NCBI GenBank assembly: GCA_027622315.1
Contig: JAQBZW010000001.1
Coordinates: forward strand, 433-64,432
Direction: 5' to 3'
DNA: 64,000 bases
From: Chloroflexota bacterium
GTDB taxonomy: Bacteria; Chloroflexota; Dehalococcoidia; UBA2979
In this document: one piece after another, positions 4,611 to 45,939 of the stretch
Position numbering within the stretch: position 1 is the stretch's first letter
Layout: each line of letters starts with the position of its first letter
Notes under the pieces: generated by a model
Database searches by the model: none
Told to the model about the DNA's origin: nothing
Seen by the model: the letters and a program-made list of their open reading frames with translations, nothing else
Made by a program: the position numbers and the translations under genes

Positions 4611-6266
<1,656 letters not shown>

Positions 6267-25308: not shown

Positions 25309-26436
25309 TCAGGCAACGTCCCTGTTCGGGTTGATCAGATACTTCTCGCCCGTCGCGCGCCTGTTGTAGACCGCGATGTGCTCCAGGCTCAGCGCCTCGC
25401 GGAGCGAGATCTCCCGGACGTAGTGGCTGGCGAAGGTGGTCTTCACCTCGTCGGCGACCCGCCGGCGCAGGCGTTCCGTTGCCTCCGGGCCGATGCGCGG
25501 GAGGAACGGCGTGAGCAACCACCCGCCGATACCCCACGCCATGCCATACGCGCGGCGGAGTTCCGTCGGCGAAGTGTCCAGGCCACCGTAGATGTACAGC
25601 TGCTTGTGCACGGACGAGCCGTACCGGTTGAACCCCGGCTCGTTCGCGCTCGCGGCCGCCTCCATGCACGTCAGGATGTCGCTGCCCAGGCGACCGCCGC
25701 CCACGGCGTCGAAGGCGAGCGTGGCGCGCGTCTTCGTGAGCGTCGCCGTCAGCTCGGGCATGAACGACGGCTGGCTCGAGTCGATCACGTGCTTCGCACC
25801 AATCGACTTCAACAGCGCCACCTGCTCGGGTGTGCGCACGATGTTCACGAGCTCGACGCCGTCGGCGAGGCAGATCTTCACCAGCATCTGGCCCAGATTC
25901 GACGCTGCCGCCGTGTGCACGAGCGCGCTGTGACCTTCGAGCCGCATCGTCTCCACGAACCCGAGCGCCGTGAGCGGATTGACGAAGCAGGACGCGCCTT
26001 CCGCGGGCGTCGTGCCTTCGTGCAGGAGCAGGCACTGGTCCGCCTTGACCACGCGGAACTGGGAGTACATCTCACGGCCGAGCACCGCCACCGTCCGCCC
26101 GAGCAGCGACCGCGCCAGTTCGCCCGAACCGGCCTCGACGACCACGCCGGCGCCCTCGTTGCCGACAGGCATCGGCTGATCGAAGCGCGCCGCCGCCATC
26201 GGCAGCAGCGCCGGCGCGATCGGTGCGGTCACGACCGGTGCTTCCGGCGTGCCTGACAGTTTCGCCTTCGTCATGTCGGCCGGGCCGAGCAAGAGGCCCA
26301 GGTCGGAGGGGTTGATGGGTGTGCCCTCGACACGGATCACGACCTCGTCCGGGCCGGGCGACGGTGTCTCCACGTCAACAAGCTCGAGTTTGAGCTGGCC
26401 GGCACTGCTGATGGTGGAACGGAGTTGCAGGGGCAT
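25309..26436 (-). CDS. MDR-superfamily (Zn-ADH/quinone oxidoreductase-like) oxidoreductase
   Basis: EVVIRVEGTPINPSDLG...PMPVGNEGAGVVVEAG...TAAASNLGQMLVKI... A GGGAGAAGG SD is present. Confidence 0.75.
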   Translation of the reverse strand: MPLQLRSTISSAGQLKLELVDVETPSPGPDEVVIRVEGTPINPSDLGLLLGPADMTKAKLSGTPEAPVVTAPIAPALLPMAAARFDQPMPVGNEGAGVVVEAGSGELARSLLGRTVAVLGREMYSQFRVVKADQCLLLHEGTTPAEGASCFVNPLTALGFVETMRLEGHSALVHTAAASNLGQMLVKICLADGVELVNIVRTPEQVALLKSIGAKHVIDSSQPSFMPELTATLTKTRATLAFDAVGGGRLGSDILTCMEAAASANEPGFNRYGSSVHKQLYIYGGLDTSPTELRRAYGMAWGIGGWLLTPFLPRIGPEATERLRRRVADEVKTTFASHYVREISLREALSLEHIAVYNRRATGEKYLINPNRDVA

Positions 26437-26646: not shown

Positions 26647-28194
26647 TTACGGGCGCATCGTCCGCATACGCGGGCCGAGCTCGCGTGTGGCGAGCTGGAT
26701 CTGCGCGTGCCGGATGAACTGCACGGCGAGCGGTCGCGACTCGCGCGGATCGATCAGGTCGTACAGCCCGAACGACTCCGCGCGAAAGAACGGTGAGCGG
26801 TCGCGCGAGTGCAGATCCTCCAGTTCCTGGCGGCGGGCATCGGGATCGGGCGCGGCCTCGATCTCGCGGCGATAGGCAGCCCACACGCCGCCCTCGATCG
26901 GGATCGAGCCCCACTCGCCCGACGGCCACGCGTAGACCGGGCCGTTGCCGTTGTGGTGCAGCCCTGCCGCGACCCCGTACGCGCGGCGCACGATGAACTT
27001 CATCCACGGCACGGTCGCCTGGCTCACGGCGGACTGTGCGCGCACGCCCTGTCGGAGCGTGCCCGCCGTCTCCGCCTCGACACCGACCATGAACCCGGGC
27101 TCGTCCTCGAAGCTCAGGACCGGCAGATGGAACGAGTCGCAGAGGTCGATGAAGCGCGTGAGCTTCTCGGAGGAGTCGGCGGTCATGGCGCCGCCCTCGA
27201 AGTTTGGGTTGTTGCACGTGACACCCACCGGGTAGCCGTCGAGCCGCGCCAGCCCGGTCATGAGCGAGCGGCCGAAGTACGGCGCGAGCTCGAAATAGCT
27301 GTCCTGATCGAGCACGCACGCGATCAGCTTGCGCGGGTTGAAGGGCCGCCGGCGGTCGCGCGGCATCAGCGAGAGCAGATCCTCATCGCGGCGATCTGCC
27401 GGATCCGCGCAGTCGCGACGCTGCGGGAGCATCCAGGCGTTGCTCGGCATGTAGGACAGGAACGTCTTGACCTGGCGCAGGCAGTCGGCCTCGTCCTCGG
27501 CGAGGTTGTCGACGATGCCGCTGCGCGTGTGCACCTGCCAACCACCGAGATCTTCCTTCGACACCGACCAGCCGAGCGCGCGCTCAACCACCGGCGGTCC
27601 GCCCGCGAACAGGAACGCGGTGTTGCGCGCCATGACCGAGAAGTGCGACTGCGCAACGCGCGCGGCAACGATCCCTGCACACGCGCCCATCGCGGCGGTG
27701 GCCACCGGCACGGTGCCCAGCAGATCCGCGTGCGGCGACACGGGCTGGCCAGAGATCGCGTTGCCCGAGTGACGACTGCGGTTCGTGCGCACGCTGCCGC
27801 CGGCGCCCTCGTGCAGCCGCACCAGCGGCAGCCGCATGCGCCGCGCCAGGTGCTCCATGTAGTAGCCCTTCGCGCTGCCGCCGCCGTCCGACGCGCCGCC
27901 GCGGATCGTCGCATCCTCGCCACCGATCACGACGTCCTGCCCGTCGATGCGTGCGGTGCCGATCACCGCGTTCGAGGGCGTCAGCGAAACGAGGTTGCCG
28001 TCGTCATCACGCTCGGCGGAGGCGGTGAGCCGGCCGATCTCCTGGAACGAGCCGACGTCCACGAGCTCGTCGATGCGCTCGCGAATCGTGAGCAGGCCGC
28101 GCGCGTGCTGCCGCTCGACGGCGGCCGGACCGCCCATCTGCTCGGCAAGCCTCCGGCGACGCTCGATCTCTTCGACTTCTGGCTGCCAGGTCAT
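26647..28194 (-). CDS. acyl-CoA carboxylase carboxyltransferase subunit family protein (AccD/PccB/methylmalonyl-CoA decarboxylase-like)
   Basis: 515 aa in a two-domain carboxyltransferase arrangement: ...DGQDVVIGGEDATIRGG... and ...AMTADSSEKLTRFIDLCDSFHLPVLSFEDEPGFMVG... GGGAGG lies 5 nt before the ATG. Confidence 0.75.
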   Translation of the reverse strand: MTWQPEVEEIERRRRLAEQMGGPAAVERQHARGLLTIRERIDELVDVGSFQEIGRLTASAERDDDGNLVSLTPSNAVIGTARIDGQDVVIGGEDATIRGGASDGGGSAKGYYMEHLARRMRLPLVRLHEGAGGSVRTNRSRHSGNAISGQPVSPHADLLGTVPVATAAMGACAGIVAARVAQSHFSVMARNTAFLFAGGPPVVERALGWSVSKEDLGGWQVHTRSGIVDNLAEDEADCLRQVKTFLSYMPSNAWMLPQRRDCADPADRRDEDLLSLMPRDRRRPFNPRKLIACVLDQDSYFELAPYFGRSLMTGLARLDGYPVGVTCNNPNFEGGAMTADSSEKLTRFIDLCDSFHLPVLSFEDEPGFMVGVEAETAGTLRQGVRAQSAVSQATVPWMKFIVRRAYGVAAGLHHNGNGPVYAWPSGEWGSIPIEGGVWAAYRREIEAAPDPDARRQELEDLHSRDRSPFFRAESFGLYDLIDPRESRPLAVQFIRHAQIQLATRELGPRMRTMRP

Positions 28195-28215: not shown

Positions 28216-29469
28216 CTACTCCATGGCACCCGCCGCCGCATAGTCCGCGATCTCGTCCGCGCTCAGTCCCAGCACCTCCGTCAGCACCTCGAACGTGTGC
28301 TCGCCGATCAGCGGCGCGCGTGATGTGACAGGCGGATGCGCCCGTGAGCGGATCGGGTTGCGATGGATCAAGAACGATCGCCCGGACGGATGATCCCCGG
28401 GCGCGGTCTCGTGGAACTGGTTGCCGCCGAGCGTCGGATCGCGATGCACGCTATCCGGGATGGTCTGATACGGACCGGCCGGCACGCCGGCTGCCTGCAG
28501 TTGTTCCGCCAGCTCATGCCGGTCGAATGCGCGCGTCCACGCCTCCAGCGCGTCGCGGATCTCCTCGCCGGCGGCGCGGCGGCCATCGAGCGTGGCGAAG
28601 CGCGTGTCGCGCAGTGCGTCGACGCCCGACAGCGCGACCAGCGTCTGCCACTGCCGGTCGTCGTAGACCGCGATCGCGCACCAAGAATCCTCGCCGGCGC
28701 AGCGGAAGAAGTCGTGCGGGCAAGCACTCGCGTCGTCGTTCCCGATTGGCGCCGGCGCGCTCCCCGTCGCCCCGTACTCGAGTAACGCCGGCCCCATGAT
28801 CGCGATGGTCGACTCGTACTGGCTGAGCTCGATGAACTGCCCCTCGCCGGTGCGATCGCGGTGTTCGAGAGCGGCGAGCACGGCGATCGCGGCATGGAAC
28901 GGATTCGACGAGAAGTCGGCGTACTGGTGTCCCCAGGGCAACGACGGCTCGCCGGGGTGGCCGGAGACCGACTTCAGCCCGGCCACGCCCGCGAACATGT
29001 CGCCGAAGCCTCGCCAGCGTGCGCGCGGCCCGCTGCTCTCCATGCTCGGCATGTTGACGACGATCACGCCGGGGTTCAGATCGCGCGCGCGCTCGTAGCC
29101 CGCGCCCCACTGCTCGAGCTGATCGCCAGCAAGGTTGCACAGCACGACGTCGGACGCGGCGACTAGCCGCTGGAGCAGCTCGCGGCCCTCCGCGGAGCCG
29201 AGATTCACCGTGCACGATCGCTTTCCCGAGTTCGCGTCCTGGAAATATCCACCGCTGTCGGGATCCGAATTCGCGTCGCCCGGGAGCACGCCGAACAGCG
29301 GCGTGCGGTTCGCTCGTCCGACCTCCATGCGCTTGCGTGACTCCACCTTGATCACGTCCGCGCCGAAGTCCGCCAGCAGCCGCGCCGCGAACGGGCCCGC
29401 GATGATCCACGAGAGGTCGAGCACGCGCACTCCCGCGAGCGGCCGGGGGGCGTGATCGCCCGCGCTCAT
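28216..29469 (-). CDS. CoA transferase family III (CaiB/BaiF/Frc-like)
   Basis: LAGVRVLDLSWIIAGPFAARLLADFGADVIKVE... is full length (417 aa). Its start overlaps the upstream gene's stop (ATGA). Confidence 0.85.
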   Translation of the reverse strand: MSAGDHAPRPLAGVRVLDLSWIIAGPFAARLLADFGADVIKVESRKRMEVGRANRTPLFGVLPGDANSDPDSGGYFQDANSGKRSCTVNLGSAEGRELLQRLVAASDVVLCNLAGDQLEQWGAGYERARDLNPGVIVVNMPSMESSGPRARWRGFGDMFAGVAGLKSVSGHPGEPSLPWGHQYADFSSNPFHAAIAVLAALEHRDRTGEGQFIELSQYESTIAIMGPALLEYGATGSAPAPIGNDDASACPHDFFRCAGEDSWCAIAVYDDRQWQTLVALSGVDALRDTRFATLDGRRAAGEEIRDALEAWTRAFDRHELAEQLQAAGVPAGPYQTIPDSVHRDPTLGGNQFHETAPGDHPSGRSFLIHRNPIRSRAHPPVTSRAPLIGEHTFEVLTEVLGLSADEIADYAAAGAME

Positions 29470-30332
29470 AGCACGCCCTCAGCGCGCAGCCCGGCGAGCG
29501 CCGCGCCGTCGAGACCAATGGCGCCGTACACCTCGGCGTTGTGCTCCCCGAGTCGCGGGGGGCGCCCGCCCACGCCCCCGGGGGTGACGCCGAAGCGCAT
29601 CGGCAGACCCGCATCGCGCGGCACGGTCGCGAGCTCCGGATGGTCGATGTCGACGAAGAACGCACGGGCTTCGAGGAAGGGGTCCCGCAGCAGGTCGGCC
29701 GCGTCGTGCACCGGCAGCGCCAGCAGCCCGCGCGACTGGACCGCATCGACCAACACGCCTCGCGTCTGCGTGCCAACCCACCGCGCGATCAGCCGGGTGG
29801 GACGTTCGTCCGCCATGAACTGATCGTGGGTGAGGTCCGCGCGCAGCGCGCGCAGCGCGCGCAGCTCCGCGACGACGGCCGGTGCATCCTCGCCGCTGAG
29901 TTCGCCGACGAGCGCGATGGCCTCCGGGTCGCGCCAGGGGTTGAACGCGACGTAGCCGTCGGCCGCCTCGTAGAGGCCGTTGGGCAGACCGTCGCCGCGT
30001 GGCGTGCGACCGCGCTCGAAACCGAACTGGTGGTAGAGCGACGCGTTCTGCATCTGGAACGTGACCAGCGTTGCGACGCGCTCGATCGCGATGTCGACGA
30101 CATCGCCACCACCCCCGATGCGCGCGGAGCGGCGGGCGATCAGCGCGCCGAGCGCGGCGGCGAGTCCCGCCAGCTCCGACGCCTGCTCCGGGCCAAAGCG
30201 CGCGGGGCACCCCTCGCGGTAGCCGTACAGGCCGAGCATGCCGCTCATCGCCTGGCAGACCAGGTCCCCACCCAGTCCCTCTCTCTGGCCACATATCTGT
30301 CCGGTCATGTCCGCCGCTCGATACGCACGCAA
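29466..30332 (-). CDS. CoA transferase family III homolog lacking the N-terminal about 150-aa Rossmann/CoA-binding region (truncated paralog)
   Basis: It begins near the catalytic-Asp region (GGDLVCQAMSGMLGLYG) and continues through the small domain and C-terminus. No N-terminal domain is encoded upstream in any frame; only 118 bp separate it from the divergent gene. Confidence 0.55.
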   Translation of the reverse strand: MRAYRAADMTGQICGQREGLGGDLVCQAMSGMLGLYGYREGCPARFGPEQASELAGLAAALGALIARRSARIGGGGDVVDIAIERVATLVTFQMQNASLYHQFGFERGRTPRGDGLPNGLYEAADGYVAFNPWRDPEAIALVGELSGEDAPAVVAELRALRALRADLTHDQFMADERPTRLIARWVGTQTRGVLVDAVQSRGLLALPVHDAADLLRDPFLEARAFFVDIDHPELATVPRDAGLPMRFGVTPGGVGGRPPRLGEHNAEVYGAIGLDGAALAGLRAEGVL

Positions 30333-30450
30333 TCCGGATGCGCCGAGGGCGCGCCCGCCGATCGGCGCGCATAATCAGCGCGCCGCGCGCGGGATCGCGC
30401 GACGACACGGCGATCGGATGCGGGCCGGAGGGGGTGCGGGGGGGCGACTC

Positions 30451-32207
30451 GTGGTTGTGCATCGTGGAATTGTGATCGTCCACGGCGTGGGCGAAGCCGG
30501 CAAAGGCGGGTACCTCGATCTGTTCGTGGAACCGCTGGCGCGCTTCGTCGGCGACGCGATCGAAGATGCCAACGTGGCGATCGAAGTCAGCAACGAAGCG
30601 GACATCGGCCGCATGAGCTCCGCCACGTTGCGTCTGCGGGACGAGAACACGCGGGCGGTCGTGGAAGAGTGGCGCATCCAGGACGCCTGGTGGGCGCGGT
30701 CGTTCGCAGCGAGCGGCTCTCAGGTGGTGCTGTACTGGGGCATCATCGCCGGCATCACGTCGATGTGGATGACCTTCCGCAACGTCTTCGTCCGCAACGC
30801 GCTGCGCTTCCTCATGCCGCGCCGCTACGAGCAGCTCCCGCTCGCGCGTGCGGACCTGCGCGGGCGGCCGCTCAGCCCGAGCACGGCCCGTCGCCTCGGC
30901 GAGGCGGACGAGGGCGCATGGGTGGTCGCCGGCGCCGCGCGCATGAAGGCGCTACTCGATGCATTCGTGTGGATGCTGATCACCGCCGGTTACCTGGTCG
31001 TCGCGGTGACGGGTCTCCTGATCGTGATCCCCGTCTACCTGCTCCTGCTCACCCCGCTCGCGATGCTGGTTCCACAGGTGTCGCGGGTGCAGCGAGCGAT
31101 CGTGGGCACGCTCGTGCGTGGCGTCGGTGATCAGCAGGCGACGACCACGCGCCGGTTCGCGCTCGCCGCCGCCGCGAACGAGGTCTCGCGCGCGCTGGCG
31201 CCCATGCTCGACCCGAGAGCGCTGGCGGCCGAGCGCGACCGTGACCCGGCGTTCGCCGGATACCGCACCGTGACGGTGGTCGCCTACTCGGGTGGCACGA
31301 TCGTCTCCTACGACGCGCTGGCGACGCAGGTCCAGGACTGGATGGCGCAGCCCGTCCCGGAGGGGATCGAGCGGCCGACGCGCGTGAACTGGATCACGGC
31401 GGGAAGCGGCCTGAACCTCGCGTACCGCATGCGCCGACGCCGCTCACAGCGCGATAACGCGTTCTGGGGGCGTCGCATCGACGGCTACGTAAACTGGTTG
31501 AACATCTACGCGCGCTACGACCCGATTCCGCAGGGTCCGGCGCCCGGCGCGCTAGTGGAAGCGCTCGTCGGGCGAGACCCGTGGCTCGACGTTCCCCCCG
31601 ACACCGGGCAACAGCGGCCGCCGTACGTGTGCCTGCGAGTCGTGAACGACGACTTCCCGGCGACGGACCACTTCGGCTACTGGAGCAACGGGGACGAGGT
31701 GCTCTCACGGGTCGCGCTCGTCGTGATGTCCGACACGCTCGCCCACAGACAGATCGACCCGCAGGATGTCGCCTTCGGCACCAGTCCACTCACACGACTG
31801 GCGTCGGAGGTGGCACGGCGGACGGCCCGCGGCCGTCCGCACCGGAACGAAGTCCTGCGCCGGCAACTGCCGGTCTACCTCGGGATGCTCGGGTTCATCG
31901 CGCTGCTACCGCGGGCCGCACTCGCCGGTCGCTGGCTGCTCGGCAAGGACACGCTGTTCGGCGTGCCCGCGGTCAGCTTCCGCGGCCGCGTGCTGGACGA
32001 GTTGCTGCCGACGTCGCTCGGCGGCCTGAGCATCGAGGGCTACCGCGACTGGCTGGTGGGTGTGGCCGCGATCGCGTTCGCGGCGCTGGTCGCCGTCCAG
32101 CTCATCCAGCTGCTCGCGACCCTCGCCCGCTGGGTCCGCGACGGGGGATCGTTCTGGCTGGTGATCGTTCCGGTGCTCGGGACCGTGCTCACGATCGCGC
32201 TCGTCGC

Positions 32208-32232
<25 letters not shown>
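30451..32232 (+). CDS. membrane-anchored alpha/beta-hydrolase-like protein (HG oxyanion motif, GYSGG nucleophile elbow, at least 5 TM helices); hypothetical
   Basis: A GTG start lies after a G-run SD. IVIVHGVGEAGKG...VVAYSGGTIVSYDAL...NDDFPATDHFGYW, with hydrophobic helices in the middle and at the C-terminus. Confidence 0.5.
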
Positions 32233-40937: not shown

Positions 40938-41070
40938 CTCTCCCCCGGGGCTTCCGCGCCGACCCCTCGCCCCAAAGGGGCGAGGGGTAGTTGTCTCCTG
41001 CGGCCGCGTCAAAGTGCACCCCTCCCCCGGAAGCGGGGGAGGGGTCGGCGCGGAAGCGCCGGAGGGAGAG
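40938..41070. repeat. composite nested palindromic (REP-like) element: 26-bp outer inverted repeats enclosing two perfect hairpins (CCCCTCGCCCC-AAA-GGGGCGAGGGG and CCCCTCCCCC-GGAAGC-GGGGGAGGGG)
   Basis: Read from the sequence, in the convergent intergenic region between acs and a crotonase gene. A related copy lies at 48408-48438. Confidence 0.6.
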
Positions 41071-44271: not shown

Positions 44272-45939
44272 CTAGATCGCGACGTAGACCGGCTGCTCGC
44301 CGAACACCCGGCGCCACATGTTGCAGATCTCGCCGACGGTGCAATACGCGTGCGCGGCCTCGACGAGGTACGGCATCACGTTCTCGCCGTCTTTCGTCGC
44401 CCGCTCGAGCTCGCTCATCGCACGGGCGGCGCGGGCGGCGTCTCGGGTCTTCCGCGTGCGGCGCAGCCGCTCGAGGTGTCGCGCCTCCCCGTCGGGGTCC
44501 ATCTCGAGGATGGGGATGTCGAGCGCCTCGTCGAGCACGTAGTCGTTCACGCCCACGATCACGCGTTCGTGCTGCTCGATCTCACGCTGATAGACCTGCG
44601 CGGCGTCCGCGATCTCGGACATGAAGAAGCCCTGCTCAATCGCCGGCAGCACGCCGCCGAGATCCTCGATGCGGTCGAAGTACTGGAGGCAGATGCGCTC
44701 CATCTCGTCGGTCATCGACTCGACGAAGAACGAGCCGCCGAGCGGATCCACCGTGTTCACGACACCGGACTCGTGCTCGATCACCTGCTGCGTGCGCATC
44801 GCCAGGCGCACGGCCTTCTCACTCGGTAGCGCGAGCGCCTCGTCCCACGAGTTCGTGTGCAGCGACTGCGTGCCGCCGAGCACACCGGCGAGCGCCTGGA
44901 TCGTCGTGCGGATCAGGTTGACCTCGGGCTGCTGGCTCGTCAGCGAGACGCCGGCGGTCTGCGTGTGGAAGCGCATCAGCCACGAGCGCGGGTTCTTCGC
45001 GCCGAAACGCTCGCGCATCTGGCGCGCCCAGATGCGCCGCGCCGCGCGGAACTTGCCGATCTCCTCGAAGAAGTCGTTGTGGCAGTTGAAGAAGAACGAC
45101 AGGCGTGGCGCGAACTCGTCGATGTCGAGGCCGCGTTCCAGCCCCCACTTCACGTACTCAATGCCGTTGGCGAGGGTGAACGCGAGCTCCTGCGCCGCCG
45201 TCGAGCCGGCCTCCCGGATGTGGTAGCCGGAGATCGAGATGCTGTTCCATTCCGGCATCTCGCGCGACGCGTACTCAATCGTGTCCACCACGAGGCGCAT
45301 GCTCTCCTCGGGCGGATAGATGTACTCGTTCTGGGCGATGTACTCCTTGAGGATGTCGTTCTGAAGCGTGCCACGCAGCGTGCTGCGGTCGACACCCTGC
45401 TTCTCCGCCGCAGCGATGAACATCGCCCAGATCACCGCCGCCGGTGAGTTGATCGTCATCGACGTCGAGATCTTGTCGAGCGGGATCTGGTCGAACAGGA
45501 TCTCCATGTCGGCGAGCGAGTCGATGGCCACGCCGCAGCGGCCGAACTCGCCGAAGGCCTCCGGCTCGTCGTGGTCGTAGCCCATGAGCGTGGGCATGTC
45601 GAAGGCGACCGACAGTCCGTCGTCGCCGTGCTCGATCAGGTAGCGATAGCGTGCGTTCGTCTCCTCGGCGGAGCCGAAACCGGCGAACATGCGGATCGTC
45701 CATGGCTTCGCCCGGTAGCCGGTGCGATGGACGCCGCGGGTGAAGGGGTAGGCGCCGGGCAGGGCAAGGTCGCGCTCGTAGTCGAGCTTCGCGACGTTCG
45801 TCGCGTCGTACACGCGATCGATTGGCATGCTCGATGTCGTGATGAACGGACCAGGCTGTTCGCGGCCTTCCGCGGCCACCTCGGCCTCGTAGCGCTCGCG
45901 CGCCTCGCGGGCGGCTTTCGCCGTCTTCTCGTCGAACAT
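44272..45939 (-). CDS. second coenzyme-B12 acyl-CoA mutase large subunit, isobutyryl-CoA-mutase-like (Gln replaces the substrate-carboxylate Arg)
   Basis: 555 aa. [33 protein letters not shown]...[21 protein letters not shown]...[11 protein letters not shown]. The other copy has [10 protein letters not shown] at this position. GAAGGAG SD is present. Confidence 0.85.

What the first reader, a model, noticed from the sequence alone, without database searches (positions are those of the whole stretch)
28216..30332. Truncated family-III CoA-transferase translationally coupled to a full-length paralog
Gene 29466-30332 encodes only the portion from the catalytic-Asp region onward (about 288 aa, no N-terminal CoA-binding Rossmann half). 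Its stop overlaps the ATG of a complete 417-aa CoA transferase (ATGA), and a carboxyltransferase gene and an MDR-family oxidoreductase follow. Family-III CoA transferases are interlocked homodimers, so a half-size partner could form a heteromeric or regulatory complex. It could also be a decaying duplicate.
Basis: partly seen in the sequence, partly recalled or inferred. Interest (0 to 1): 0.5.

Follow-up and report, generated by a model that had tools for sequence, protein, structure and literature searches.

The report
Truncated non-catalytic CoA-transferase subunit gene
In an uncultured Chloroflexota bacterium, one gene of a conserved two-subunit CoA-transferase has lost its first third to a deletion or rearrangement; the leftover is still intact but is most likely a recent gene remnant, which is an ordinary finding.

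Summary
The minus-strand ORF 29466-30332 (280 aa from ATG 30308) matches only positions 128-366 of the 366-position family-III CoA-transferase profile. Its stop overlaps (ATGA) the start of a complete 417-aa CoA-transferase, and a carboxyltransferase and an MDR oxidoreductase follow.

The two genes are not duplicates (28% identity). They are the E-type and F-type subunits of a BbsEF-like heteromeric enzyme. An E(~400 aa)-F(~408 aa) pair, usually followed by a carboxyltransferase, recurs in other Dehalococcoidia/Chloroflexota contigs, and E is full-length in essentially all homologues. Only this organism has the short form, seen in three assemblies. The two best-documented relatives have ABC-transporter genes directly upstream of E. 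Here they and about 142 codons are replaced by an unrelated divergent gene.

The nucleophile position (Frc D169, BbsF D178) is Ser52 in the short ORF and is never Asp in the E-type clade. The intact partner carries it as Asp185.

The remnant shows no decay: 35/35 invariant residues are kept and there is no rate acceleration. But it lacks five of six Rossmann strands and a Shine-Dalgarno core, and it models poorly.

Best reading: a recent 5' truncation, probably non-functional. A working "mini-E" subunit is not excluded (~15%).

The parts
29466..30332 (-). Short ORF, the 5'-truncated E-type (BbsE-like, non-catalytic) CoA-transferase subunit gene. It is 288 aa from TTG 30332 and 280 aa from ATG 30308. 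Homology to full-length orthologues starts at about residue 15-20.
   Evidence: Pfam CoA_transf_3 positions 128-366/366. A family HMM matches positions 143-402/403. It aligns to PDB 9fn0_A residues 140-404. It is 56% identical to the C-terminal two thirds of the full-length L007 protein.
30177..30179 (-). Codon TCG = Ser52 of the short ORF. This is the position of the catalytic Asp of canonical family-III enzymes (Frc D169).
   Evidence: The alignment of the L007 orthologue to 1p5h_A (wild type, GD) and 1t3z_A (D169S mutant, GS) puts the orthologue's Ser at D169. In 28 E-type homologues this column is S20/Y4/F2/E1 and never D.
30275..30310 (-). Region where homology to full-length orthologues ends (the truncation breakpoint).
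   Evidence: DNA alignment with L007, L008 and L002 is conserved from about GGACTGGGTGGGGACCTGGTCTGCCAGGCG onward and unrelated upstream. blastn and tblastn homology to L007 ends at window 30266 and 30290.
30309..30450 (.). Intergenic region of about 140 bp between the short ORF and the divergent 593-aa gene. It has no room for about 142 missing codons.
   Evidence: Three-frame translation. No sigma-70-like promoter match in 29300-30700. No GAGG-type Shine-Dalgarno core precedes TTG 30332 or ATG 30308, unlike the four downstream genes.
29466..29469 (-). ATGA stop/start overlap between the short ORF and the F-type gene.
   Evidence: Sequence. The E/F junction is equally tight in orthologous loci (overlap or a gap of 1-3 nt), so the coupling is ancestral.
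28216..29469 (-). Full-length F-type (BbsF-like) CoA-transferase subunit, 417 aa. This is the catalytic subunit.
   Evidence: Pfam 1-366/366. PDB 9fn0_B at 9.6e-68 over residues 8-410. It is 70% identical to the L007 orthologue.
28915..28917 (-). Codon GAC = Asp185 of the F-type partner, the predicted catalytic nucleophile.
   Evidence: It aligns with D178 of 9fn0_B and with the FAD motif Asp of 4ed9_A. PDB 9fol is titled 'D178-CoA adduct'. The residue is invariant in 34/34 F-type sequences.
26647..28194 (-). Carboxyltransferase (acyl-CoA carboxylase beta / MmdA-like), 515 aa. It is the third gene of the module and follows the E-F pair in most, not all, related loci.
   Evidence: Pfam Carboxyl_trans 3.8e-87. 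PDB 1vrg_A at 2.4e-84. Orthologues at 66-75% identity lie directly after E-F in L002, L007 and L008, with 5' fragments at the ends of the short contigs L004 and L009. None was found in L011 or L012.
25309..26436 (-). MDR-family oxidoreductase, 375 aa. This is local context and is not conserved with the module.
   Evidence: Pfam ADH_zinc_N and ADH_N. It is absent from the related loci examined.
30451..32232 (+). Divergent 593-aa gene of unknown family. It occupies the place where relatives have ABC-transporter genes and the 5' part of E.
   Evidence: It is called as a 593-aa gene in L001 and L048. It has no Pfam or NCBIfam hit and no homologue in the related loci.
29837..29866 (-). 9-nt tandem repeat (CTGCGCGCG on the coding strand, encoding LRA). 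There are 3 copies here and 2 in L001.
   Evidence: It is the only difference between the window and L001 over 5.5 kb. It is repeat family D5.

Best explanation
The short ORF is the 3' two thirds of the gene for the E-type (BbsE-like) subunit of a heteromeric family-III CoA-transferase. The ancestral unit, kept in other Chloroflexota/Dehalococcoidia, is E (~400 aa) then F (~408 aa), usually followed by an acyl-CoA-carboxylase-beta-type carboxyltransferase. In two relatives, including the closest one, an ABC importer (SBP_bac_5 plus two permeases) lies directly upstream.

In this organism a deletion or rearrangement with one end inside E removed whatever lay upstream, probably including the transporter genes and the promoter. 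It also removed the first ~142 codons of E and joined the rest to an unrelated divergent gene (shown).

In this enzyme type only F carries the aspartate nucleophile (Asp185 here). E is a catalytically dead structural partner (shown by alignment, and supported by the BbsEF D178-CoA adduct structure).

The lost part comprises strands beta1-beta5 and the helices of the Rossmann-like large domain of E. The kept part comprises the dimer-interface helices, strand beta6, both linkers, the small domain and the C-terminal helices.

The remnant has no dedicated Shine-Dalgarno core and loses model confidence exactly where the missing half would pack. The event also looks recent, because there is no excess substitution. 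I therefore infer that the remnant is a young, probably non-functional or badly impaired gene fragment whose open frame simply has not yet decayed. F and the carboxyltransferase are then orphaned, unless another E-type paralogue elsewhere in the genome serves them (inferred).
For: - **Coverage of the short ORF:** it covers only profile positions 128-366/366 and 143-402/403 of a clade HMM.
- **Homologues are full-length:** of the 53 closest non-self homologues (>=47% identity), 47 are 386-432 aa. I traced the three shortest that lie on contigs long enough to judge. P0008 is a scaffold gap. P0027 is a frameshift with the N-terminus still present. P0053 is a frameshift near codon 355.
- **Conserved module:** an E-F pair occurs in L002, L004, L006-L012. 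A carboxyltransferase follows in L002, L007 and L008, with a fragment at the end of L004 and L009.
- **Upstream context in relatives:** L007 (the closest) and L002/L003 have SBP_bac_5 plus two permeases directly upstream of a full-length E. The window has no homologue of these.
- **Breakpoint:** it maps to about 30275-30310.
- **Subunit identities:** E matches 9fn0_A and F matches 9fn0_B.
- **Nucleophile:** it is Ser52 in the remnant and never Asp in 28 E-type sequences. It is Asp in 34/34 F-type sequences. PDB 9fol is titled 'D178-CoA adduct'.
- **Structure models:** the full-length homologue models at pLDDT 87 with beta1-beta5 in residues 12-134. The remnant, with essentially the same alignment, drops to pLDDT 65, with residues 1-49 below 50 and 50-110 at about 50-60.
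- **Shine-Dalgarno cores:** the four downstream genes have GAGG-type cores and the short ORF has none.
- **Real junction:** it is seen in three assemblies.
Against: - **No sign of decay:** there is no frameshift or stop. All 35 otherwise-invariant and 27 of 29 near-invariant clade residues are kept, the same as any full-length member.
- **Normal identity ratio:** the E/F identity ratio is 0.82-0.88, inside the 0.80-0.93 range of most full-length pairs (one close pair reaches 1.03).
- **No rate acceleration:** Tajima relative-rate counts against full-length L007 are balanced (33 vs 32, 27 vs 36, 38 vs 26 and so on; all p>0.1).
- **Retained elements are the relevant ones:** the missing part belongs to the catalytically dead half-site. 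The small domain, which in this fold completes the partner's active site (PMC9196870), is kept and models confidently (pLDDT 80-92). The ATGA coupling to F is also kept.
- **Low power of the remaining arguments:** open frames persist by chance in 70% GC DNA. With only near-identical assemblies and then a 57%-identical orthologue, the age of the truncation cannot be measured.
Confidence: 0.65

Rival explanations
1. Functional 'mini-E' subunit. The 280-aa product still binds the F-type subunit through the central interface helices. Its small domain closes F's single active site. The lost Rossmann half belonged only to the dead second site and is dispensable.
For: - E-type subunits have no nucleophile, so their own large-domain site is catalytically silent.
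- The retained small domain models confidently.
- All conserved residues are kept and there is no rate acceleration.
- The ATGA coupling is kept.
- F and the carboxyltransferase are intact and conserved at 70-75% identity to L007.
Against: - The form is unique to one organism among about 50 homologues.
- The N-terminal half is strongly conserved in the E-type clade (consensus RVLDL..GAYG..GAEVIRVEPP, SLYFLHYNAGKRGITLD), which argues that it is needed.
- Five of six core strands are lost, and the remaining large-domain helices lose model confidence.
- No Shine-Dalgarno core precedes either start.
- The breakpoint coincides with loss of synteny, as expected for an accident rather than an adaptation.
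Confidence: 0.17
2. Split gene. An inversion or translocation cut E in two. The N-terminal ~140 codons survive elsewhere in the genome, next to the transporter genes, and the two fragments reassemble non-covalently.
For: Only 64 kb of the genome is visible. Neither the transporter genes nor the N-terminal part is in the window, so relocation rather than deletion is formally possible.
Against: - No N-terminal fragment attributable to this organism was found in the protein collection. The best N-terminal-only hit, P0143 (68% identity), is a truncated gene on a 591-bp farmland-soil contig and cannot be linked to this genome.
- No inverted repeats or mobile-element signatures lie at the junction.
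- Cutting inside a Rossmann sheet is an unlikely place for productive fragment complementation.
Confidence: 0.07
3. Assembly or gene-calling artefact: a chimeric join or a missed frameshift hides a full-length gene.
For: Artefacts of exactly this kind exist among the homologues. L006 has a scaffold gap, L004/L005 have a frameshift, and L049 has an E-carboxyltransferase join.
Against: - The same junction occurs in three assemblies from different pipelines, which differ by 3 SNPs and one 9-nt indel.
- No N-terminal coding sequence is present in any frame upstream.
- A well-formed divergent gene occupies the space.
Confidence: 0.03
4. Decaying recent tandem duplicate of the neighbouring full-length gene.
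For: Two adjacent genes belong to the same Pfam family.
Against: The two are only 28% identical over 180 aa. Each has its own orthologues at 50-70% identity in many genomes and its own best PDB chain. The pair is therefore ancient.
Confidence: 0.01

Closest known systems
[quoted passage not shown]
   Same: - Two adjacent, anciently diverged family-III CoA-transferase genes are arranged E then F.
- The E-type sequence matches chain A best (5e-46 for the full-length orthologue, 2.9e-18 for the remnant). The F-type matches chain B best (9.6e-68).
- The nucleophile Asp is on the F-type chain only (BbsF D178, equivalent to Asp185 here). The E-type chain has a non-acidic residue there (Tyr in BbsE, Ser here).
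   Different: - Identity is only about 33%.
- No bbs beta-oxidation genes (BbsG, BbsH, BbsCD, BbsAB) are nearby. The neighbours are a carboxyltransferase, an MDR and a luciferase-like oxidoreductase, so the substrate is not expected to be benzylsuccinate.
- The E-type gene here lacks its first ~142 codons.
Homodimeric family-III CoA-transferases (Frc, YfdW, CaiB, BaiF, Mct)
   Same: Same Pfam family and fold. The full-length orthologue model has TM 0.75-0.80 to Frc, YfdW and CaiB. The partner keeps the catalytic Asp.
   Different: Those enzymes are homodimers with two equivalent active sites and about 400-aa subunits. Here there are two different subunits, one without the nucleophile, and that one is also truncated.
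Ordinary 5'-truncated gene remnants (young pseudogenes left by deletions)
   Same: - The form is unique to one lineage.
- The breakpoint coincides with a synteny break.
- The essential fold core, the likely promoter and the Shine-Dalgarno core are lost.
- The remaining frame is still open in GC-rich DNA.
   Different: There is no detectable excess substitution. The piece that is left is exactly the part that contacts the partner's active site.

Membership tests
Family-III CoA-transferase (Pfam CoA_transf_3), as a complete enzyme subunit | A complete two-domain subunit: a Rossmann-like large domain built from N- and C-terminal segments, plus a small domain | tested here: not met
   The short ORF covers only profile positions 128-366/366. 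Strands beta1-beta5 (residues 12-134 of the modelled homologue) are missing. The partner gene meets this feature (1-366/366).
Family-III CoA-transferase (Pfam CoA_transf_3), as a complete enzyme subunit | A catalytic aspartate nucleophile at the Frc/CaiB D169 position | tested here: not met
   The short ORF has Ser52 and its clade has S/Y/F/E. The partner has Asp185, invariant in 34/34 sequences.
Family-III CoA-transferase (Pfam CoA_transf_3), as a complete enzyme subunit | An interlocked dimer | not testable with these tools
   Only monomer prediction is available, and no complex model or experiment could be run.
BbsEF-type heteromeric family-III CoA-transferase (architecture) | Adjacent E-type and F-type genes, each closest to the corresponding BbsEF chain | tested here: met
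   9fn0_A is the best hit for the short ORF and its orthologue. 9fn0_B is the best hit for the partner.
BbsEF-type heteromeric family-III CoA-transferase (architecture) | Both subunits full length (~400 aa) | tested here: not met
   The E-type product is at most 288 aa. Orthologues are 386-432 aa.
Benzylsuccinate CoA-transferase (function, bbs operon) | Genomic context of benzylsuccinate beta-oxidation genes (bbsG, bbsH, bbsCD, bbsAB) and bss genes | tested here: not met
   The neighbours are Carboxyl_trans, MDR and luciferase-like genes. No NCBIfam equivalog cut-off is reached.
Decaying pseudogene | Frameshifts, internal stops or loss of conserved residues | tested here: not met
   The frame is open, and 35/35 invariant and 27/29 near-invariant residues are kept.
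Decaying pseudogene | Accelerated substitution relative to intact orthologues | tested here: not met
   The identity ratio is normal and Tajima relative-rate tests are balanced. Power is limited to roughly the last 10-15% of the branch.
Decaying pseudogene | Loss of an indispensable part of the gene and of its expression signals | tested here: inconclusive
   About 142 codons and the upstream operon are lost. There is no Shine-Dalgarno core or promoter match. Expression itself cannot be tested here.

The most novel reading that the evidence does not exclude
The 280-aa product is a working 'mini' pseudo-subunit. E-type subunits are catalytically dead and contribute mainly their small domain and interface helices to the F-type active site. 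The organism may therefore have shed the useless Rossmann half of E and still assemble an active F/E' CoA-transferase. This would be a natural minimal heterodimer of an otherwise obligately interlocked fold.
Probability: 0.15. Interest if true: 0.5.

Novelty: new member of a known kind. Interest (0 to 1): 0.18.

Why it matters
As a truncated gene remnant it matters little. It is mainly an annotation caution: the short gene should be flagged as an N-terminally truncated BbsE-like subunit, not as a CoA-transferase.

Two by-products are more useful.

- Chloroflexota/Dehalococcoidia carry a recurrent, uncharacterised module: a BbsE-like subunit, a BbsF-like subunit and usually a carboxyltransferase, sometimes with an ABC importer. 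Only the F-type subunit has the nucleophile.
- If the truncated E were shown to be functional, it would define which parts of the dead subunit are needed. It would also show whether the interlocked family-III dimer can form with an 'open-ring' partner.

Tried and rejected
- **In-frame or frameshifted N-terminal domain upstream (30333-31100, three frames):** none.
- **N-terminal fragment elsewhere in the window (HMM against the six-frame translation):** only the partner gene.
- **Conserved family of short C-terminal-only proteins:** the three shortest homologues on contigs long enough to judge (P0008, P0027, P0053) are a scaffold gap or frameshifts. The other short ones (P0010, P0012, P0054) look like partial or late-start gene calls and were not traced.
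- **Closer relatives for dN/dS:** the protein collection and the GTDB genome scan gave only near-identical assemblies and then relatives of at most 57% identity. Classical dN/dS is therefore impossible or saturated, and I used amino-acid relative-rate and invariant-site tests instead.
- **Standalone N-terminal half from the same organism:** nothing attributable. That search oddly returned only short proteins.
- **Mobile-element or repeat signature at the junction, or a composition shift:** none.
- **Promoter or terminator scan of 29300-30700:** no hits.
- **Paper describing the BbsEF structure:** not in the library. I used the PDB entry titles and alignments only.
- **NCBIfam naming of the module:** no model reaches its cut-off.
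Full report
**1. What is in the sequence**

On the minus strand, ORF 29466-30332 is 288 aa from TTG 30332 and 280 aa from ATG 30308. Its stop overlaps (ATGA, 29466-29469) the start of a 417-aa ORF at 28216-29469. Pfam places the short product on positions 128-366 of the 366-position CoA_transf_3 profile. It places the 417-aa product on positions 1-366. Downstream lie a Carboxyl_trans protein (26647-28194), an MDR oxidoreductase (25309-26436) and a luciferase-like oxidoreductase.

The reading frame of the short ORF is closed by a stop at 30375-30377. A divergent 593-aa gene starts at 30451. None of the three frames upstream encodes CoA-transferase sequence. An HMM of the missing N-terminal part finds nothing else in the 64-kb window.

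The same arrangement is present in a Logan contig and in an NCBI MAG contig. L001 (SRR2027830) is identical except for one copy of a 9-nt repeat. L048 (GCA_027592075.1, 'Chloroflexi bacterium') has 3 SNPs in 12.5 kb, none in the short ORF.

**2. The two genes are two subunit types, not duplicates**

They share only 28% identity over 180 aa. The short ORF and its full-length orthologues match chain A of the solved benzylsuccinate CoA-transferase BbsEF (9fn0_A) best. The values are 2.9e-18 over chain residues 140-404 for the short ORF and 5e-46 for the L007 orthologue. The partner matches chain B best (9.6e-68, full length). A model of a full-length homologue also has 9fn0_A as its top structural match (TM 0.80). 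Source annotations of the homologues likewise read BbsE and BbsF.

**3. Which subunit is catalytic**

The Frc wild-type chain (1p5h...ALGDSNSG...) and its D169S mutant (1t3z...ALGSSNSG...) fix the nucleophile column. In the alignment that column is Ser in the E-type orthologue, which corresponds to Ser52 of the short ORF. BbsE has Tyr there.

Across 28 full-length E-type homologues the column is S/Y/F/E and never D. In the partner the column is Asp185. It aligns with D178 of 9fn0_B and with the Asp of 4ed9, and it is invariant in 34/34 F-type sequences. PDB 9fol is titled 'BbsEF, D178-CoA adduct'.

So F is the catalytic subunit and E is a dead partner.

**4. The ancestral arrangement and the lesion**

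I checked the related loci for their gene order:

- E-type (~400 aa) followed immediately by F-type (~408 aa) occurs in L002, L004, L006, L007, L008, L009, L010, L011 and L012.
- A 515-aa carboxyltransferase follows the pair in L002, L007 and L008, and its 5' end is visible at the ends of the short contigs L004 and L009.
- No carboxyltransferase was found in L011 or L012. L006 and L010 are too short to tell.

The closest relative is L007, a Dehalococcoidia MAG. Its E, F and carboxyltransferase are 56%, 70% and 75% identical to the window's. L007 and L002/L003 have an SBP_bac_5 binding protein and two permeases directly upstream of a full-length E. The window has no homologue of these.

Of the 53 closest non-self homologues of the short ORF, 47 are 386-432 aa. 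I traced the three shortest that lie on contigs long enough to judge. One is a scaffold gap (L006). One is a frameshift with the N-terminus still present (L004/L005). One is a C-terminal frameshift (L012). The other short entries look like partial or late-start gene calls and were not traced.

Nucleotide and protein homology to L007 stops at about window 30275-30310. Beyond that point lies the unrelated 593-aa gene, which has no Pfam or NCBIfam hit and no counterpart in the related loci. No repeats, mobile-element signatures or composition shift mark the junction.

The simplest account is a deletion or rearrangement with one end inside E.

**5. What was lost and what was kept**

In the AlphaFold model of a full-length homologue (P0002, pLDDT 87.4), residues 12-134 hold strands beta1-beta5 and the intervening helices of the Rossmann-like domain. 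The short ORF begins to align at P0002 residue ~140-147.

It therefore keeps these elements:

- the helix with the DLxCQAMSG motif
- the long central helices
- strand beta6
- both linkers
- the small domain
- the C-terminal helices

According to the Mct structure paper (PMC9196870), the ADP part of CoA binds loops of beta1-beta4. The dimer centre is formed by helices equivalent to those retained. [quoted passage not shown]

Modelled with essentially the same alignment, the short product drops to pLDDT 65. Residues 1-49 are below 50 and residues 50-110 are about 50-60. The small domain stays at 80-92.

**6. Is it decaying?**

The remnant shows no sign of decay:

- The frame is open.
- All 35 residues invariant in the other 28 clade members are kept, and 27 of 29 near-invariant ones. 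This is indistinguishable from any full-length member in a leave-one-out test.
- Its identity to orthologues relative to that of the F-type gene (0.82-0.88) lies within the range of most full-length pairs (0.80-0.93; one close pair reaches 1.03).
- Tajima relative-rate counts against full-length L007, with six outgroups, are balanced and no different from those of F.

The power of these tests is limited. With neutral amino-acid change 5-10 times faster than constrained change, I estimate that only a neutral period longer than roughly 10-15% of the branch since the split from L007 would be visible.

The three assemblies differ in the ORF only by an in-frame 9-nt repeat copy, which says nothing about selection. 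Open frames of hundreds of codons are common by chance in this ~70% GC DNA.

**7. Expression signals**

The four downstream genes each have a GAGG-type Shine-Dalgarno core 6-11 nt before the ATG. Neither TTG 30332 nor ATG 30308 has one. The sigma-70 scan finds nothing in the ~140-bp intergenic region, but the expectation there is near zero anyway. The tight E/F junction is ancestral (overlap or a gap of 1-3 nt in orthologous loci) and is not a special feature of the short gene.

**8. Verdict**

It is shown that this is a 5'-truncated E-type (non-catalytic, BbsE-like) subunit gene of a conserved heteromeric CoA-transferase module. It is unique to this organism and was produced by a lesion that also removed the upstream context.

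I infer that it is a young remnant that no longer makes a properly folded subunit (confidence ~0.65). The main rival is a functional 'mini-E' that still supplies its small domain and interface helices to the F-type active site (~0.15-0.2). This reading is made less absurd by the fact that the lost half belongs to a dead site. It is weakened by four points:

- strong conservation of that half in all relatives
- loss of the fold core
- the missing ribosome-binding site
- the form's uniqueness to one organism

A split gene with the N-terminal half elsewhere (~0.07) and an artefact (~0.03) are minor rivals.

The function of the module is unknown. By analogy it may activate an imported carboxylic acid by CoA transfer, followed by a carboxyl-transfer or decarboxylation step. 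The carboxyltransferase is PCC-beta/MmdA-like. This functional idea is inference only. Large CaiB/BaiF paralogue families are typical of related Chloroflexota (PMC5395668), so another E-type partner elsewhere in the genome is plausible.

Noticed in passing
window 29837-29866 (minus strand coding): A 9-nt tandem repeat, CTGCGCGCG (encoding Leu-Arg-Ala), has 3 copies in the window and L048 but 2 in L001. It is the only difference over 5.5 kb. It lies in a stretch of the short ORF that is about 8 residues longer than in orthologues.
   Followed up: partly
E-type clade generally (alignment A2; window codon 30177-30179): The whole BbsE-like clade lacks the catalytic Asp (Ser, Tyr, Phe or Glu instead), while the F-type clade keeps it. 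These heteromers should therefore have one active site per E-F pair. No paper describing this was found in the library.
   Followed up: partly
L049 1169-2266 (Logan SRR23961926; protein P0055): One ORF joins the middle of an E-type sequence directly to carboxyltransferase residue ~100, skipping the rest of E and all of F. This is either a real deletion in another population or a chimeric contig.
   Followed up: partly
L004 370-1586 and L005 1011-2227 (two JGI samples): The E-type gene is split by a frameshift at about codon 98, with all sequence still present. The same state occurs in two samples, so it may be a real frameshift rather than a sequencing error.
   Followed up: partly
window 30451-32232 (+): This divergent 593-aa ORF is predicted to be membrane-associated from its hydrophobic stretches and has an N-terminal IVIVHGVGE motif. 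It has no Pfam or NCBIfam match and no counterpart in the related loci.
   Followed up: no
L002 1920-4313 and 14148-16394: Genes of about 750-800 aa carry two CoA_transf_3 regions, which look like fused tandem CoA-transferases. They lie near the E-F-carboxyltransferase module in a relative, which suggests that covalent fusion is another route taken by this family.
   Followed up: no
window 5046-5973 and 44707-45634: A paralogous stretch of about 900 bp is present twice at 72-86% identity, 39.7 kb apart.
   Followed up: no
window 40942-40972 / 41035-41065: A 31-nt inverted repeat is 90% complementary, with 62 nt between the arms.
   Followed up: no
L012 6593-9016 and L011 6572-9021: In these relatives the E-F pair is present without the carboxyltransferase. 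In L012, E also carries a frameshift near codon 355 (this is a long-read assembly, so it may be an error). The carboxyltransferase is therefore not an obligatory part of the module.
   Followed up: partly
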